Below, in pieces: positions 106 through 4,246 of a DNA stretch of 4,246 bases. The notes beneath the pieces are model-generated. The model was not told where the DNA came from and searched no databases. It saw only the letters and a program-made list of their open reading frames with translations. Both the position numbers and the translations under genes were made by a program. How positions within the stretch are numbered: position 1 is the stretch's first letter; the number at the start of each line of letters is the position of its first letter. Source of the DNA: a virus (Duplodnaviria; Heunggongvirae; Uroviricota; Caudoviricetes); the IMG/VR virus record IMGVR_UViG_2645727970_000009; one strand, written 5' to 3'.

Positions 106-261
106 ATGAAGCAGCAAAAGGCGATGTTAATCGCCCTGATCGTCATCTGTTTAACCGTCATAGTGACGGCACTGGTAACGAGGAAAGACCTCTGCGAGGT
201 ACGAATCCGAACCGGCCAGACGGAGGTCGCTGTCTTCACAGCTTACGAACCTGAGGAGTAA
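106..261 (+). CDS. hokD: Hok/Gef-family type I toxin, 51 aa small membrane peptide
   Basis: ATG at 106 preceded by AGGAG (92-96); translation MKQQKAMLIALIVICLTVIVTALVTRKDLCEVRIRTGQTEVAVFTAYEPEE matches from memory the Hok/RelF family (single TM helix, conserved C-terminal Cys and Glu-rich tail); stop TAA 259-261. The track ORF 67..261 is the same frame extended to an upstream TTG. Confidence 0.9.
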   Translation: MKQQKAMLIALIVICLTVIVTALVTRKDLCEVRIRTGQTEVAVFTAYEPEE

Positions 262-268
262 GAGACCC

Positions 269-290
269 GGCGAGGGAGAAATCCCTCGCC
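269..290 (+). promoter_or_regulatory. Perfect 8-bp stem-loop (GGCGAGGG-agaaat-CCCTCGCC) in hok 3' UTR; candidate mRNA fold-back/stability element
   Basis: Inverted repeat read directly from sequence 8 nt after the hok stop; hok-family mRNAs are known to carry structured 3' elements (fbi) that pair with the 5' end. The 5' partner lies outside the window so pairing cannot be confirmed. Confidence 0.4.
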
Positions 291-330
291 ACCTCTGATG
301 TGGCAGGCATCCTCAACGCACCCGCACTTA

Positions 331-356
331 ACCCGCTTCGGCGGGTTTTTGTTTTT
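331..356 (+). terminator. Rho-independent terminator of the hok transcript
   Basis: ACCCGC-ttcg-GCGGGT hairpin (GC stem, 4-nt loop) followed by TTTTTGTTTTTATTTT. Confidence 0.7.
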
Positions 357-2137: not shown

Positions 2138-2512
2138 ATGCGTATAGAGTTTGTTTTGCTTTACCCGCCGACGGTGAACACCTACTGGCGACGTCGTGGC
2201 AGCACATATTTTGTATCAAAAGCCGGTGAGCGTTATCGCCGGGCTGTGGCGCTTATTGTTCGCCAGCAGCGGCTGAAATTAAGCCTGTCCGGAAGGCTGG
2301 CGATAAAGATTATTGCCGAGCCACCGGATAAGCGCCGCCGTGACCTGGACAATATTCTGAAAGCGCCGCTGGATGCGCTGACACATGCGGGGTTGCTAAT
2401 GGACGATGAGCAGTTTGATGAAATCAATATCGTTCGTGCTCAGCCAGTATCTGGTGGACGTCTGGGGGTGAAGATTTACCCCATAATGCTTGAAGGGCAG
2501 GTCAAAAAATGA
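2138..2512 (+). CDS. rusA: RusA-family Holliday junction resolvase (124 aa)
   Basis: AAGAGG Shine-Dalgarno 6 nt upstream of ATG 2138; translation contains LLYPPTVNTYW and the acidic catalytic cluster PDKRRRDLDN...LMDDEQ that parallels E. coli RusA (PDRRRRDLDN...LDDAQ, from memory); conserved position immediately upstream of Q as in lambdoid nin regions. Confidence 0.85.
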   Translation: MRIEFVLLYPPTVNTYWRRRGSTYFVSKAGERYRRAVALIVRQQRLKLSLSGRLAIKIIAEPPDKRRRDLDNILKAPLDALTHAGLLMDDEQFDEINIVRAQPVSGGRLGVKIYPIMLEGQVKK

Positions 2513-3330
2513 AACTGGAAGATTTACCGAAATACTACTCCCCAAAATCCCCCGGCCTGACTGATGCATCGGCCTCAACGTCGAAAGATACGCTGAGTAT
2601 CACTGATGTGATGGCCGCGCAGGGCATGACACAGAATTGGGCTGAGATGGGGTTTTCTGCGTTCCTTGGGAAAATGGGCATTAGTATGAATGACAGAGAG
2701 CGGGCAACAGAATTGCTGACAGAATATGCACTCAGTCGGTGTGATCGCGTGGCGGCGTTAAGAAAACTCCCGGCAGAAATAAAACCGGCAGTGATGCGTA
2801 TTATGGCTTCGTATGCGTTTGAAGATTATGCCCGTAGCGCGGCGAGCAAAAAACAGTGCCCCTGTTGTCACGGAAAAAAATTTATTGAAAGCGAGGTTTT
2901 TACAAACAAGATCCAGTATCCGGATGGTAAGCCGCCAGTGTGGGCAAAGTGCACAAAAGGCGTGTATCCGTCTTACTGGGAGGAATGGAAAAAAGTTAGG
3001 GAGGTGGTAAAAGTTGCCTGTCCGGAGTGTGGAGGGAAGGGGGAGGTTTCCACCGCCTGTAAAGATTGTCGTGGGCGCGGTGTTGCCATTCATCGTGAAG
3101 AGTCGGTAAAACGTGGTATGCCTGTTATCAGAGACTGCCAGCGTTGTGGTGGTCGTGGCTATGAAAGATTACCTTCAACGGAGGCATTTAATGCCATATG
3201 TAATGTAACCGATGCCATATCTCTTGATACATGGAAAAAAACAGTTAAACGTTTTTACGATACGCTGGTGGTGCAGTTTGATATTGAAGAAGCATGGGCA
3301 GAACAACAACTGAAAAAGGTGACCAGATAG
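2509..3330 (+). CDS. Q: Lambda-Q-family late-gene antiterminator (273 aa) with expanded Cys-rich zinc-binding region
   Basis: ATG 2509 overlaps the rusA stop (ATGA). N-terminus MKLEDLPKYYSPKSP...TDVMAAQGM, central ASYAFEDYARSAA, and C-terminus TWKKTVKRFYDTLVVQ...KKVTR parallel lambda Q (MRLESVAKFHSPKSP..., ATFAYADYCRSAA, TWSRTVKPLYDALVVQ...NAVTR, recalled). Followed immediately by a pR'/qut-like site and terminator. Confidence 0.85.
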   Translation: MKLEDLPKYYSPKSPGLTDASASTSKDTLSITDVMAAQGMTQNWAEMGFSAFLGKMGISMNDRERATELLTEYALSRCDRVAALRKLPAEIKPAVMRIMASYAFEDYARSAASKKQCPCCHGKKFIESEVFTNKIQYPDGKPPVWAKCTKGVYPSYWEEWKKVREVVKVACPECGGKGEVSTACKDCRGRGVAIHREESVKRGMPVIRDCQRCGGRGYERLPSTEAFNAICNVTDAISLDTWKKTVKRFYDTLVVQFDIEEAWAEQQLKKVTR

Positions 3331-3363: not shown

Positions 3364-3386
3364 TGCCCTAACGATGGGCGTTTTAT
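3364..3386 (+). promoter_or_regulatory. qut-like initial transcribed region with sigma70-dependent pause-inducing element (AACGATGGG)
   Basis: AACGATGGG at 3370-3378 is identical to the -10-like pause element at the start of the lambda pR' transcript (recalled as ...CAACGATGGG...). Predicted transcription start near 3370. Confidence 0.4.
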
Positions 3387-3410
3387 GCCTGACGTTAGAA
3401 GATTTTTTAC

Positions 3411-3434
3411 ACCCGTCGCCAGGCGGGTTTTTTT
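3411..3434 (+). terminator. tR'-like rho-independent terminator of the short pR' leader transcript
   Basis: Hairpin CCCGTC-gcca-GGCGGG (3412-3427, one G-U pair) followed by seven T (3428-3434), about 65 nt downstream of the predicted start. Confidence 0.7.
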
Positions 3435-3497: not shown

Positions 3498-3930
3498 GCT
3501 GGCTTTTTCGACAAGAGTTATTGGTGTGTCACGTTAACCGGAAAAAGGAAAGTTTGAGAAACGCGATCTGGCACAGGCGGTGATTAACGCCGCATACCTG
3601 GTGGCCTGTGCAGATGGTGAATGTGAGGCTTCCTAGAAAGCGAAGATCGAACAGGTACTGCGTAATCAGCCAGCGCTGTCCGCGTTTACGTCAGAAATTA
3701 ATGCGATTAGCGCAACCATTATCGGTCAGCTGGATACGAACTTTAAAACTGGTCGTCGTGCGGCGTTACGTGAGATCGAGGATGTGAAACACGATACGCG
3801 TGAAGCGGAAGATGTGCTGGATGTGGCGGTGGCCATTGCGGAGGCAGACGGCGAAATTGAGCCGGAAGAGCGCAAGGTGCTGGAAGAGATTGCCGGTGTT
3901 CTGGGGCTTCGTCTGGAGAATCACCTGTGA
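3498..3930 (+). pseudogene. TerB-family (tellurite-resistance TerB-like) gene remnant with nonsense and frame lesions
   Basis: Frame 1 from 3538 reads PEKGKFEKRDLAQAVINAAYLVACADGECEAS*KAKIEQVL...VAIAEADGEIEPEERKVLEEIAGVLGLRLENHL*, showing the paired ADG-x-acidic motifs of TerB (recalled ...VASDGVSSEEKQKM... and ...AKSDGNFDDDEKSAVREIARSLG...). In-frame TAG at 3634-3636 sits where TerB has Glu. No in-frame start exists upstream (TAA at 3535-3537); a possible N-terminal piece (GFFDKS, frame 3) ends at TGA 3555-3557, consistent with a +1 indel in the A5 run 3542-3546. 5' boundary is approximate. Confidence 0.5.
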
Positions 3931-4094
3931 CGGTAAAACTGCGCCTGGCTGTGGCTGCACTCCTGCTGTTTCTGGTGGTGATGGTGGATTTCACCAGCAG
4001 AATCATGTCGGTGCTGGCGGATGGGGGGCTGGTCTGCGGCATTGTGGTATTGCTGTGGCCGGTGATAAAAAGAAACAGCCTGCATAATGCTTGA
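3927..4094 (+). CDS. Hypothetical small hydrophobic protein (55 aa from GTG; 37 aa if ATG 3981), probable two-helix membrane peptide
   Basis: GTG 3927 overlaps the TerB-like stop (GTGA) with GGAGA (3915-3919) 7 nt upstream; translation VTVKLRLAVAALLLFLVVMVDFTSRIMSVLADGGLVCGIVVLLWPVIKRNSLHNA has two hydrophobic stretches; stop TGA 4092-4094 followed by a T7 run. Not in the ORF track because it is shorter than 60 aa. Confidence 0.35.
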   Translation: MTVKLRLAVAALLLFLVVMVDFTSRIMSVLADGGLVCGIVVLLWPVIKRNSLHNA

Positions 4095-4150
4095 TTTTTT
4101 TGTTTACTGTTTATTAAAAATACTACTGCATGGTGAATCCCCCTGTGCGG

Positions 4151-4169
4151 CTGTCTCTTGATCAGATCT
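4151..4169. repeat. Terminal inverted repeat of the IS (IS50 IE-type 19-mer)
   Basis: Exact 19/19 match to the recalled IS50 inside-end sequence; contains two GATC Dam sites. Confidence 0.7.
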
Positions 4170-4183
4170 CCTGATCAAGAGAC
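4153..4183. repeat. Perfect 13-5-13 palindrome (GTCTCTTGATCAG-atctc-CTGATCAAGAGAC) carrying three GATC sites
   Basis: Read directly from sequence; arms are exact reverse complements; overlaps the IS terminal repeat and the last codons of the transposase. Confidence 0.9.
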
Positions 4184-4246
4184 TTCATCACCAGGTAACC
4201 CTCAACCATATCCTGAAGTCTGAACCAGCCATCCCACATGACGACC
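4162..4246 (-). CDS. Transposase C-terminal fragment (IS50/Tn5 Tnp-like), partial, 28 codons in window
   Basis: Minus-strand translation ...VVMWDGWFRLQDMVEGYLVMKSLDQEI* resembles the Tn5 transposase C-terminus (...ALWEGWEALQSKLDGFLAAKDLMAQGIKI*, recalled); stop is the reverse complement of TCA at 4162-4164. Confidence 0.6.
   Translation of the reverse strand, partial: VVMWDGWFRLQDMVEGYLVMKSLDQEI

What the first reader, a model, noticed from the sequence alone, without database searches (positions are those of the whole stretch)
4153..4183. Perfect 31-bp palindrome built from the IS end core
The core GTCTCTTGATCAG is repeated in inverted orientation 5 bp further into the element, giving an exact 13-5-13 palindrome that overlaps the transposase stop codon. 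IS50 itself, as recalled, has a direct repeat (TCTTGATC) rather than an inverted one here. Such a hairpin-capable end could be a regulator binding site, a transcriptional barrier against read-in from the prophage late promoter, or a site prone to cruciform formation.
Basis: seen in the sequence. Interest (0 to 1): 0.5.

Follow-up and report, generated by a model that had tools for sequence, protein, structure and literature searches.

The report
Conserved hairpin at ISEc13 inside end
The 13-5-13 inverted repeat is a real, evolutionarily conserved part of the end of ISEc13, a Tn5-like mobile element; its function is untested, and when the element is lost it leaves a 35-bp palindromic scar found in about 15% of complete E. 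coli genomes.

Summary
Observation confirmed. Window 4153-4165 and 4171-4183 are a perfect 13-nt inverted repeat with a 5-nt spacer; 0 of 300 shuffles reach 13. It lies in the inside end (IE) of ISEc13, an IS50/Tn5-group element. The outer arm is positions 3-15 of a 19-bp end identical to the IS50 IE and holds the transposase stop codon. The inner arm is the transposase's last codons. It is not a local mutation. It is intact in every near-full-length ISEc13 copy examined and in relatives down to about 50% protein identity. The inner-arm codons are frozen (TCT 15/15, CTT 14/15), while other invariant residues use 3-6 synonymous codons. The feature defines one clade, which alone also carries a terminator-like hairpin plus T-run just inside the other end; IS50 has neither. 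It is not an intrinsic terminator (no T-run), so the proposed barrier to phage late transcription is unsupported. The most likely role, inferred and not shown, is a nucleic-acid stem-loop, probably a built-in 3' stem-loop of the transposase mRNA and an insulator. New by-product: the inner arm directly repeats the other end's tip, and deletion between them gives exactly the solo 35-bp palindromes seen at about 10 loci, one in 797 of 5,426 E. coli genomes.

The parts
4151..4246 (-). IE-proximal 96 bp of an ISEc13 copy (IS4 family, IS50 group); the element runs off the right edge of the window
   Evidence: Megablast hits are annotated 'IS4-like element ISEc13 family transposase'. A full 1,550-bp copy is in L001.
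4151..4169 (+). 19-bp inside-end (IE) terminal sequence CTGTCTCTTGATCAGATCT, identical to the IS50/Tn5 IE
   Evidence: Read directly. The IS50 IE is confirmed by a published aphII-promoter primer and by the Tn5 IS50L-aph(3')-IIa junction, found at 99% identity or more in 232 plasmid records, 100% in all five listed.
4153..4165 (.). Outer arm of the inverted repeat (IE positions 3-15)
4166..4170 (.). 5-nt spacer or loop (ATCTC; GAGAT on the transposase strand)
   Evidence: The spacer varies in copy L112 (AGCTC) while both arms stay perfect.
4171..4183 (.). Inner arm, an inverted copy of IE positions 3-15; on the minus strand it is codons (AA)G TCT CTT GAT CAG, encoding (K)SLDQ
   Evidence: Codon-level conservation is shown.
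4162..4164 (-). Transposase stop codon TGA, inside the outer arm
   Evidence: The stop at this position is conserved in all 28 distinct IE ends that selected as ending in the terminal TGA.
4165..4245 (-). Last 27 codons of the ISEc13 transposase (a Tn5 transposase homologue)
   Evidence: The full protein matches Tn5 transposase structures at E = 6e-84. Pfam hits: Tnp_DNA_bind and DDE_Tnp_1 above their cut-offs, Dimer_Tnp_Tn5 just below its cut-off.
4160..4176 (.). Three GATC (Dam) sites at 4160-4163, 4165-4168 and 4173-4176; the first two are at the same positions as in the IS50 IE
   Evidence: Read directly.
4139..4150 (.). Left half of the insertion target: C-run (4139-4143) plus one copy of the 8-bp duplication CTGTGCGG (4143-4150)
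   Evidence: Empty site in O55:H7 (L059: gaatccccctgtgcgg|tggggcaatc). The occupied homologous site in E2348/69 has CTGTGCGG on both sides.

Best explanation
The repeat is an inherited, selected component of the inside end of ISEc13 and its relatives, which form one clade of the IS50/Tn5 group. The outer arm is fixed because it is the transposase recognition and cleavage sequence and contains the stop codon. The inner arm is the last codons of the transposase gene, kept complementary to the tip by selection on the nucleotides. I think it most likely works as a nucleic-acid stem-loop, probably in RNA. The stop codon lies only 11 nt from the end of the element, so there is no room for a conventional 3' structure. 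Pairing the tip with the preceding codons gives the transposase mRNA a stable 3' stem-loop (about -28 kcal/mol within the 61-nt folded region) that does not depend on where the element has landed. This would protect against 3'-exonucleases and keep the stop codon. Being palindromic, the same stem-loop forms at the start of any transcript that reads in from that side. It would be the partner of the terminator-like hairpin plus T-run that the same clade carries just inside the outside end. These elements insert into host terminator-like hairpins, so read-in transcription should be common for them. What is shown: the repeat's existence and non-randomness, its conservation, the nucleotide-level constraint, its restriction to one clade together with the OE hairpin, the absence of terminator features, and scar formation. 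What is inferred: that the selected form is RNA rather than DNA, and that the role is stabilisation or insulation. A demonstrated side effect is that the inner arm is a direct repeat of the outside-end tip, and deletion between the two leaves a 35-bp perfect palindrome.
For: The repeat is not a chance match: 0 of 300 shuffles reach 13 nt. The RNA fold is -28 and -29.4 kcal/mol (z = -6.3 and -4.9). It is intact in E2348/69, UTI89, E. whittamii and another E. coli, and in Scandinavium (77%), Phytobacter (76%) and Pantoea (73%). It has 12 bp in Buttiauxella and a Klebsiella plasmid, and an 8-11-bp base of stem in marine lineages at about 49-50% identity. Synonymous constraint: TCT 15/15 and CTT 14/15, against 6 codons at another invariant Leu and 3-4 at invariant Gly columns. 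On 21 distinct ends, 81.9% of cells pair against 36-50% when the partner is slid; pair 15 shows double changes (C-G 7, G-C 5, U-G 4). The conserved part is the base of the stem at the very tip, while the loop-proximal part and the loop vary; this fits a stem better than a complete second protein site. In a copy at another site both mismatches fall outside the arms, whereas a truncated dead plasmid copy has an arm mutation. The transposase tree places the inner arm and the OE hairpin plus T-run in one and the same clade, and the OE stems differ in sequence between subclades. Insertion sites are GC-stem hairpins, many obviously host terminators.
Against: There is no expression or RNA-end data. 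One arm is invariant, so true covariation is limited to one pair and could reflect relatedness. No excess of G-U pairs on the sense strand distinguishes RNA from DNA. A ribosome terminating at a stop codon inside the stem must melt it on every round. In several marine lineages the stem is only 8-9 bp with a 13-nt loop, and the local fold is not significantly better than shuffles (z = -1.1 to -1.6). Sister clades and IS50 manage without the feature. In 7 of 21 lineages the inner copy extends to the cleavage triplet CTG; a second-end model also predicts this.
Confidence: 0.4

Rival explanations
1. DNA-level protein site. The inner arm is a second, inverted copy of the transposase recognition sequence, or a symmetric site for a host factor such as Fis, or a Dam/SeqA-sensitive GATC cluster. 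It would modulate IE use, for example as a decoy or auto-inhibitory binding site next to the real end.
For: In ISEc13 the inner arm copies IE positions 3-15 exactly. In 7 of 21 distinct lineages it extends to the full tip including CTG. IS50 has a second partial copy of the same core in direct orientation, which suggests that a reiterated core may matter in this group. Three GATC sites lie in the 31 bp. Dam methylation and DnaA are known regulators of Tn5 ends (background and references in PMC3347997).
Against: In the marine half of the clade only positions 1/3-11 are kept, and positions 12-19 are not conserved. From my memory of the Tn5 co-crystal work, those positions carry much of the N-terminal-domain contact. 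GATC in the inner arm is not conserved across the clade. The co-occurring OE structure has the form of an RNA terminator, which points to a transcript-level theme.
Confidence: 0.25
2. DNA hairpin or cruciform. The palindrome extrudes in supercoiled DNA, or folds in single-stranded DNA at the replication fork or during conjugation, and so gates access of transposase to the IE, for example coupling transposition to replication.
For: The single-strand DNA fold is -13.5 kcal/mol (z = -5.8), against -2.7 for the IS50 IE. The arms cover most of the transposase site. The recurrent deletions ending in the inner arm are of the kind attributed to slipped or snap-back structures in Tn10 excision (Foster et al. 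1981, cited).
Against: A 13-bp arm is short for cruciform extrusion in vivo (general knowledge). There is no direct evidence. The shortened 8-9-bp arms with 13-nt spacers in marine relatives would extrude even less readily.
Confidence: 0.15
3. No function. The palindrome is a mutational product (quasi-palindrome correction by template switching) that arose once and persists by descent or because of protein constraint on the C-terminal helix (K-S-L).
For: It has a single origin on the tree. Tn5 has K-D-L at the aligned residues, so some protein constraint exists. The C-terminal helix is needed for synapsis (Steiniger-White and Reznikoff 2000, cited).
Against: Synonymous sites are frozen in the arm (TCT 15/15, CTT 14/15) but saturated in neighbouring invariant codons across about 50% protein divergence. 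The residue before the arm varies (K, M, I, R, L) while its third base stays G in 19 of 21. Mismatches accumulate in a dead copy but avoid the arms in a near-full-length copy.
Confidence: 0.1
4. One reading: an intrinsic terminator or roadblock that stops transcription from the prophage late promoter, or any outside promoter, from entering the element at the IE.
For: The stem is strong. The element sits about 720 bp downstream of the Q gene's tR'-like terminators and is antisense to late transcription.
Against: No T-run follows the stem in either direction: CTTCATCACC inward, AG plus variable flank outward. The consensus scan does not call it, while it does call the tR'-like sites. The tail is not T-rich in relatives either. 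The feature is conserved outside prophages. Q-modified RNA polymerase is terminator-resistant (established lambdoid biology).
Confidence: 0.05

Closest known systems
IS50 / Tn5 inside end (IE)
   Same: The 19-bp terminal sequence CTGTCTCTTGATCAGATCT is identical. The transposase stop codon TGA lies inside the end, and the first two GATC sites are at the same positions. The transposase is homologous (E = 6e-84). OE/IE asymmetry is retained; I read the TTATACACA motif (the DnaA box, by memory) in the OE sequence, and the GATC sites lie at the IE.
   Different: IS50 follows the core with a direct repeat (TCTTGATC-AGA-TCTTGATC) and cannot fold (DNA fold -2.7 kcal/mol against -13.5). ISEc13 and its clade have the inverted copy, plus a hairpin just inside the OE that IS50-like outgroups lack.
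Protective RNA structures at IS ends (IS200 left-end terminator hairpin; IS10 and IS50 structures that blunt read-through transcripts), recalled from the literature and not tested here
   Same: These are hairpins built into the extreme ends of an IS that insulate the transposase gene from outside transcription. The OE-side hairpin plus T-run of this clade fits that pattern well.
   Different: Those structures lie at the 5' (upstream) end and either terminate (they have a U-run) or hide the ribosome-binding site. The IE palindrome is at the 3' end, overlaps the stop codon, lacks a U-run, and is built partly from coding sequence.
REP/BIME-type 3' stem-loops that stabilise upstream mRNA against 3' exonucleases (recalled: Newbury, Higgins and colleagues, 1987)
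   Same: A stable stem-loop at the 3' end of a coding region with no terminator tail; the proposed mode of action is the same.
   Different: REP elements are intergenic host repeats. Here one arm is the transposase-binding tip of a mobile element and the other is coding sequence. No stability data exist.
Tn10 'nearly precise excision' remnant (Ross, Swan and Kleckner 1979; Foster et al. 1981; references seen)
   Same: A deletion between short direct repeats located inside the inverted ends of the element removes almost all of it and leaves a small palindromic remnant at the site. Simulating this for ISEc13 gives exactly the observed 35-bp solo palindrome.
   Different: This is a single IS, not a composite transposon. 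The direct repeat is only 7 bp (GTCTCTT) and exists only because of the inner arm. The remnant is 35 bp with two complete tips.
IS186 target choice (SaiSree, Reddy and Gowrishankar 2001; title seen, consensus recalled from memory)
   Same: It is an IS4-family element that inserts into G/C-run-flanked sites with duplications of variable length. Compare the C-run...G-run hairpin targets and the 8-12-bp duplications seen here.
   Different: It belongs to a different subgroup of the family. This concerns the target, not the palindrome itself.

Membership tests
IS4 family, IS50 group (ISEc13) | DDE transposase homologous to Tn5 transposase, with an N-terminal DNA-binding domain and a C-terminal dimerisation domain | tested here: met
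   phmmer against Tn5 transposase structures gives E = 6e-84 over residues 6-453. Pfam: Tnp_DNA_bind and DDE_Tnp_1 above cut-off; Dimer_Tnp_Tn5 at 24.1 bits, just below the 26.7 cut-off. RefSeq annotation reads 'IS4-like element ISEc13 family transposase'.
IS4 family, IS50 group (ISEc13) | Terminal inverted repeats beginning 5'-CTG, with about 19-bp OE/IE-type ends | tested here: met
   IE is CTGTCTCTTGATCAGATCT (window 4151-4169). The OE of the full copy is CTGTCTCTTATACACAAAT.
IS4 family, IS50 group (ISEc13) | Fixed 9-bp target-site duplication, as for Tn5 | tested here: not met
   The duplication is 8 bp (CTGTGCGG) at the site homologous to the window. Intact relatives show 8, 9, 10 and 12 bp. 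This is a deviation in behaviour and does not put the family assignment in doubt.
Rho-independent (intrinsic) terminator | GC-containing stem-loop | tested here: met
   13-bp stem with a 5-nt loop, about -28 kcal/mol in the 61-nt context.
Rho-independent (intrinsic) terminator | U-rich tract immediately 3' of the stem | tested here: not met
   The tail is CUUCAUCACC inward and AG plus flank outward. The consensus scan does not call it, although it calls two sites at 3364-3428. The tails in relatives are not U-rich.
3' mRNA-stabilising stem-loop (REP-like mode of action) | Stable stem-loop at the 3' end of the transcript's coding region, conserved independently of the protein sequence | tested here: met
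   Folds, frozen synonymous sites, pair counts.
3' mRNA-stabilising stem-loop (REP-like mode of action) | Transcript 3' ends map at the stem, and the stem increases mRNA half-life | not testable with these tools
   Needs 3' RACE or Term-seq and decay measurements.
Second transposase-binding site (subterminal repeat) | Carries the full set of end positions needed for transposase binding | tested here: inconclusive
   Positions 3-15 are copied exactly in the enterobacterial lineages. Only positions 1/3-11 are kept in the marine lineages, and positions 16-19 are never copied.
Second transposase-binding site (subterminal repeat) | Bound by transposase | not testable with these tools
   Needs gel shift or footprinting.
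Nearly-precise-excision remnant (Tn10-type) | The remnant equals the product of a deletion between short direct repeats inside the element's ends, and occurs at former insertion sites | tested here: met
   GTCTCTT occurs only twice in ISEc13, at the OE tip and in the inner arm. The simulated deletion product is identical to the solo 35-bp sequence. Solo copies lie at about 10 distinct loci within REP- or terminator-like hairpins. Caveat: at lldD-trmL the flanks also differ by about 80 bp from the unoccupied allele, and no locus was found with a full IS, a scar and an empty site all present.

The most novel reading that the evidence does not exclude
This clade of Tn5-like elements is specialised to land in the loops of host terminator or REP hairpins, and it carries replacement hairpins at both ends: a true terminator inside the outside end, and the coding-sequence-plus-tip palindrome at the inside end. 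Whichever way it inserts, the interrupted host transcript quickly meets a stable 3' structure, and the transposase gene is insulated from the strong read-in such sites impose. When the element is lost by deletion between the OE tip and the inner arm, the 35-bp palindrome it leaves rebuilds a hairpin at the site. That would be an IS architecture evolved to minimise the cost of insertion, with structure-guided targeting and variable duplication length that are unusual for a Tn5-type transposase.
Probability: 0.15. Interest if true: 0.7.

Novelty: new variant of a known kind. Interest (0 to 1): 0.45.

Why it matters
Tn5/IS50 is the best-understood cut-and-paste transposon and the basis of tagmentation. 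A natural sister clade has the same 19-bp inside end plus an obligatory hairpin, a terminator-like hairpin at the other end, hairpin-directed targeting and duplications of variable length. That offers a ready comparison for how end architecture controls expression and end use. Practically, the 35-bp solo palindrome is an unannotated IS footprint present in about 15% of complete E. coli genomes. It is a simple marker of past ISEc13 residence and a potential source of hairpin-related effects on neighbouring genes. The palindrome sequence was not found in any paper in the searchable library.

Tried and rejected
- **Terminator scan.** The window scan does not call the palindrome, so the terminator reading is rejected. 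The same tool also failed to call the OE hairpin plus T-run in L014 and L011. Probably the upstream A-run pairs with the T-run and the tool counts it as stem, though I did not test this. I therefore relied on folds and on reading the sequences directly.
- **Rfam.** Nothing at the palindrome; there are only weak sub-threshold hits elsewhere in the window.
- **Literature.** The 8 papers mentioning ISEc13 only list it. The IS4-family review does not mention ISEc13 or a hairpin at IS50-group ends. There is no hit for the palindrome sequence in either orientation. PMC95536, the IS186 target paper, is not held, so the IS186 consensus rests on memory.
- **RNA versus DNA by G-U asymmetry.** There are too few informative pairs (U-G 2 at pair 13, 4 at pair 15), so this is undecided.
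- **The GAGC/GCTC double change in solo scar L090/L096.** I considered it as covariation evidence but rejected it. In a dead scar it can arise by quasi-palindrome correction, and a related scar (L095) has it in one arm only.
- **Clean target duplications around scars.** Only L084 shows a near-direct 9-mer. Others have inverted flanks, or, at lldD-trmL, an extra difference of about 80 bp. The precursor-product relation therefore rests on sequence identity of the scar to the simulated product, not on an allelic series.
- **IS50 on the tree.** The IS50L copy fetched (L113) lacks its OE, so IS50 could not be placed on the tree. Its lack of the inner arm was shown from the junction sequence instead.
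- **Mobile 35-bp MITE.** I considered that the 35-bp unit might be mobile but rejected it on geometry: two 19-bp ends overlapping on one 35-bp duplex cannot be synapsed by one transposase dimer. This is an inference.

Full report
**1. The observation**

Window 4153-4165 (GTCTCTTGATCAG) and 4171-4183 (CTGATCAAGAGAC) are perfectly complementary around the 5-nt spacer ATCTC. It is the only inverted repeat of at least 10 nt with a gap of 60 nt or less in the 4,246-bp window. In 300 dinucleotide-preserving shuffles the best repeat was 11 nt, in 5 of 300; none reached 13. The spacer is not self-complementary, so this is a 13-5-13 inverted repeat and not a strictly perfect 31-bp palindrome. On the minus strand the last 27 codons of an ORF (…EGYLVMKSLDQEI) end at 4165, and the stop codon TGA occupies 4164-4162, inside the outer arm.

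**2. What the element is**

- The last 96 bp of the window match sequences annotated 'IS4-like element ISEc13 family transposase'. They occur in 2,489 of 5,426 complete E. coli genomes, with about 30 copies in EPEC E2348/69.
- A full copy (L001) is 1,550 bp.
- Its 457-aa transposase matches Tn5 transposase structures at E = 6e-84 and has the Tn5-type DNA-binding and DDE domains.
- The end in the window, CTGTCTCTTGATCAGATCT (4151-4169), is identical to the IS50 inside end. I confirmed that sequence from a published primer and from the IS50L-aph(3')-IIa junction, which is present at 99% identity or more in 232 plasmid records (100% in all five listed).
- The other end of ISEc13 is CTGTCTCTTATACACAAAT, which is OE-like.

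**3. Context in the window**

The window is a lambdoid prophage segment. In order it holds a Hok-family toxin, DUF968, RusA, antiterminator Q (2509-3330), tR'-like terminators (3364-3428), a TerB-family pseudogene, DUF3927, and then the IS. An O55:H7 genome is 99.9% identical up to 4150 and carries the empty site, gaatccccctgtgcgg|tggggcaatc. E2348/69, UTI89 and ColV-type plasmids carry an ISEc13 copy at the homologous junction. So this is an old insertion in a phage late-region module that has since spread.

**4. Is the palindrome a local accident?**

No.

- It is intact in E2348/69, UTI89, E. whittamii and another E. coli.
- In a copy at a different chromosomal site (L112), the two differences from the window fall in the loop and just beyond the inner arm. 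Both arms stay perfect.
- A truncated, dead plasmid copy has a substitution in the inner arm.
- Relatives from other genera keep it. Scandinavium (77% protein identity), Phytobacter (76%) and Pantoea (73%) have the identical 13-5-13. Buttiauxella and a Klebsiella plasmid have 12 bp. Marine Alteromonadales-type lineages (about 49-50%) keep the 8-11 bp nearest the tip with a longer loop.
- A metagenome scan added lineages whose preceding codon is CTG, so the inner copy reaches the very tip. It is 11-13-11, often with a further 3 bp after a single mismatch.

**5. Selection on nucleotides, not amino acids**

Across 15 lineages the two central inner-arm codons are TCT (15/15) and CTT (14/15). Other invariant residues nearby use 6 Leu codons, 3-4 Gly codons and 2 Glu or Gln codons. 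The residue before the arm varies (K, M, I, R, L), yet its last base is G, which pairs with the tip, in 19 of 21 distinct ends. On those 21 ends, 81.9% of cells form pairs in the 15-pair model, against 36-50% when the 3' partner is slid by 1-3 columns. Pair 15 shows double changes (C-G 7, G-C 5, U-G 4). Because the outer arm is the invariant transposase site, little more covariation can be expected, and relatedness inflates such scores.

**6. Phylogenetic pattern and a second hairpin**

On a neighbour-joining tree of the transposases, every element with the inner arm falls in one clade. Four outgroup lineages of similar divergence lack it, and separately IS50 (which could not be placed on the tree) lacks it too. 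The same clade, and only that clade, has a 12-13-bp stem beginning at OE position 16, followed by a run of 6-8 T. An example is AAATCCCCCGG-TTTTTAC-TGGGGGATTTTTTGAAC. The stem interiors differ in each subclade, and RNA folds are -16 to -22 kcal/mol. By its form this is an inward-facing intrinsic terminator. In ISEc13 itself the T-run has decayed. The consensus scan did not call these hairpins, probably because their A-run pairs with the T-run.

**7. Targets**

Reconstructed empty sites are GC-stem hairpins, with a C-run on one side and a G-run on the other. Many are plain host terminators with flanking A/T runs. The apparent duplications are 8, 9, 10 or 12 bp, centred on the hairpin loop. That is unlike the fixed 9 bp of Tn5 and is reminiscent of IS186 (from memory; reference seen). 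At the window's site the duplication is 8 bp (CTGTGCGG) within CCCCC-TGTGCGG-TGGGG.

**8. What the palindrome is not**

It has no T-run on either side, is not called by the terminator scan and matches no Rfam family. A role as a barrier to the phage late promoter is also at odds with its conservation outside prophages and with the terminator resistance of Q-modified polymerase (established knowledge).

**9. Most likely mechanism (inferred)**

The conserved part is the base of a stem anchored on the very tip. The loop-proximal part and the loop are free to vary, and the partner structure at the other end is a transcript-level device. I therefore favour a nucleic-acid stem-loop, probably RNA. 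The stop codon is 11 nt from the element's end, so the only way to give the transposase mRNA a 3' stem-loop that is independent of the insertion site is to pair the tip with the preceding codons. The same palindrome folds at the head of transcripts reading in from that side. I put this at about 0.4. Rivals:

| Explanation | Confidence |
|---|---|
| Second, inverted protein-binding site in duplex DNA | 0.25 |
| DNA hairpin or cruciform gating IE use | 0.15 |
| No function (mutational product kept by descent) | 0.10 |

None of these can be settled without experiments.

**10. A demonstrated consequence: 35-bp scars**

The inner arm is inverted relative to the IE, so it is a direct repeat of the OE tip. 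GTCTCTT occurs only at those two places in ISEc13. Deleting between them gives CTGTCTCTTGATCAGGAGATCTGATCAAGAGACAG. Exactly this 35-bp perfect 15-5-15 palindrome, with no transposase, lies between lldD and trmL in strain WAT and in 797 of 5,426 complete E. coli genomes. K-12-like genomes lack it. Metagenome contigs show solo copies at about 10 distinct sites, typically in the centre of REP- or terminator-like inverted repeats. They include marine-type cores. This parallels Tn10 'nearly precise excision' (references).

Caveats: the lldD-trmL allele also differs from the unoccupied allele by about 80 bp. Several scars have inverted rather than direct flanking 9-mers. I found no locus showing all three states.

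**11. Novelty and verdict**

ISEc13 is a catalogued element, and hairpins at IS ends, 3' stabilising stem-loops and nearly precise excision are known ideas. New here, as far as the searchable literature shows:

- the clade-defining inverted copy of the IE tip written into the transposase's last codons;
- its pairing with an OE terminator;
- the widespread 35-bp scar.

I rate it a new variant of a known kind, with moderate interest (0.45).

Noticed in passing
L014:1105-1160, L006, L011, L021 (OE side of relatives); L001:4020-4076 for ISEc13: Immediately inside the 19-bp outside end, all members of the clade have a 12-13-bp stem followed by 6-8 T, which is the form of an inward-facing intrinsic terminator. 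Stem sequences differ between subclades. ISEc13 itself keeps the stem but has lost the T-run. Outgroup IS50-group elements have no such hairpin.
   Followed up: partly
L011, L013, L014, L017, L018, L020-L022, L039, L040, L064 flanks; window 4139-4150 with L059:3300-3330: Insertion sites are GC-stem hairpins (C-run...G-run), and many are obvious host rho-independent terminators. Apparent target duplications are 8, 9, 10 or 12 bp, centred on the hairpin loop, unlike the fixed 9 bp of Tn5.
   Followed up: partly
L057:1502-1536 (E. coli WAT, lldD-trmL spacer); L061-L105 metagenome loci: A solo 35-bp perfect palindrome (two complete IE-type tips, no transposase) is present in 797 of 5,426 complete E. 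coli genomes at lldD-trmL and at about 10 other loci in metagenomes. It is unannotated. It equals the product of a deletion between the OE tip and the inner arm of ISEc13.
   Followed up: partly
L037, L103, L087/L099, L080/L104, L107 flanks: Some copies and scars are flanked by inverted rather than direct 9-mers, for example GGCAAAGCC|IS|GGCTTTGCC, and scar L103 sits inside a perfect 16-bp inverted repeat. Near-palindromic duplications, quasi-palindrome correction and MAG chimeras are all possible causes; this is unresolved.
   Followed up: no
L019 and L031 (Alishewanella jeotgali): The flanks of two IS copies are swapped: the duplication halves match across loci. This indicates recombination or inversion between two copies of the element.
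   Followed up: no
L059:3290-3330 compared with window 4109-4150; L001, L003, L058: O55:H7 genomes carry the empty site of the window's insertion. E2348/69, UTI89 and ColV-type plasmids (next to iss and Rz remnants) carry ISEc13 at the homologous junction. So this is one old insertion in a lambdoid late-region module that has been spread by phage recombination. No complete E. coli genome in the collection reproduces the window's exact junction at more than 95% identity.
   Followed up: partly
window 106-261 (+) and 270-351 (+): A Hok/Gef-family toxin ORF (Pfam E = 1e-23) is followed by a structured region with a weak, sub-threshold Rfam match to isrK (25.7 bits against a gathering score of 50).
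   Followed up: no
window 3540-3930 (+): A TerB-family ORF is interrupted by an in-frame stop. The identical region is annotated as a pseudogene with an internal stop in O55:H7. It is followed by an intact DUF3927 ORF at 3927-4094.
   Followed up: no
window 3364-3380 and 3411-3428 (+): Two terminator-like hairpins with T-runs lie just downstream of the Q antiterminator gene, consistent with a pR'/tR' late-leader region. The IS lies about 720 bp further downstream and is antisense to late transcription.
   Followed up: no
L001:4058-4076 (OE of ISEc13): The ISEc13 outside end CTGTCTCTTATACACAAAT contains the motif TTATACACA, which I recall as the DnaA box of the Tn5 OE. It differs from the engineered Tn5 'mosaic end' only at positions 17-18; the mosaic-end sequence is from memory.
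   Followed up: no
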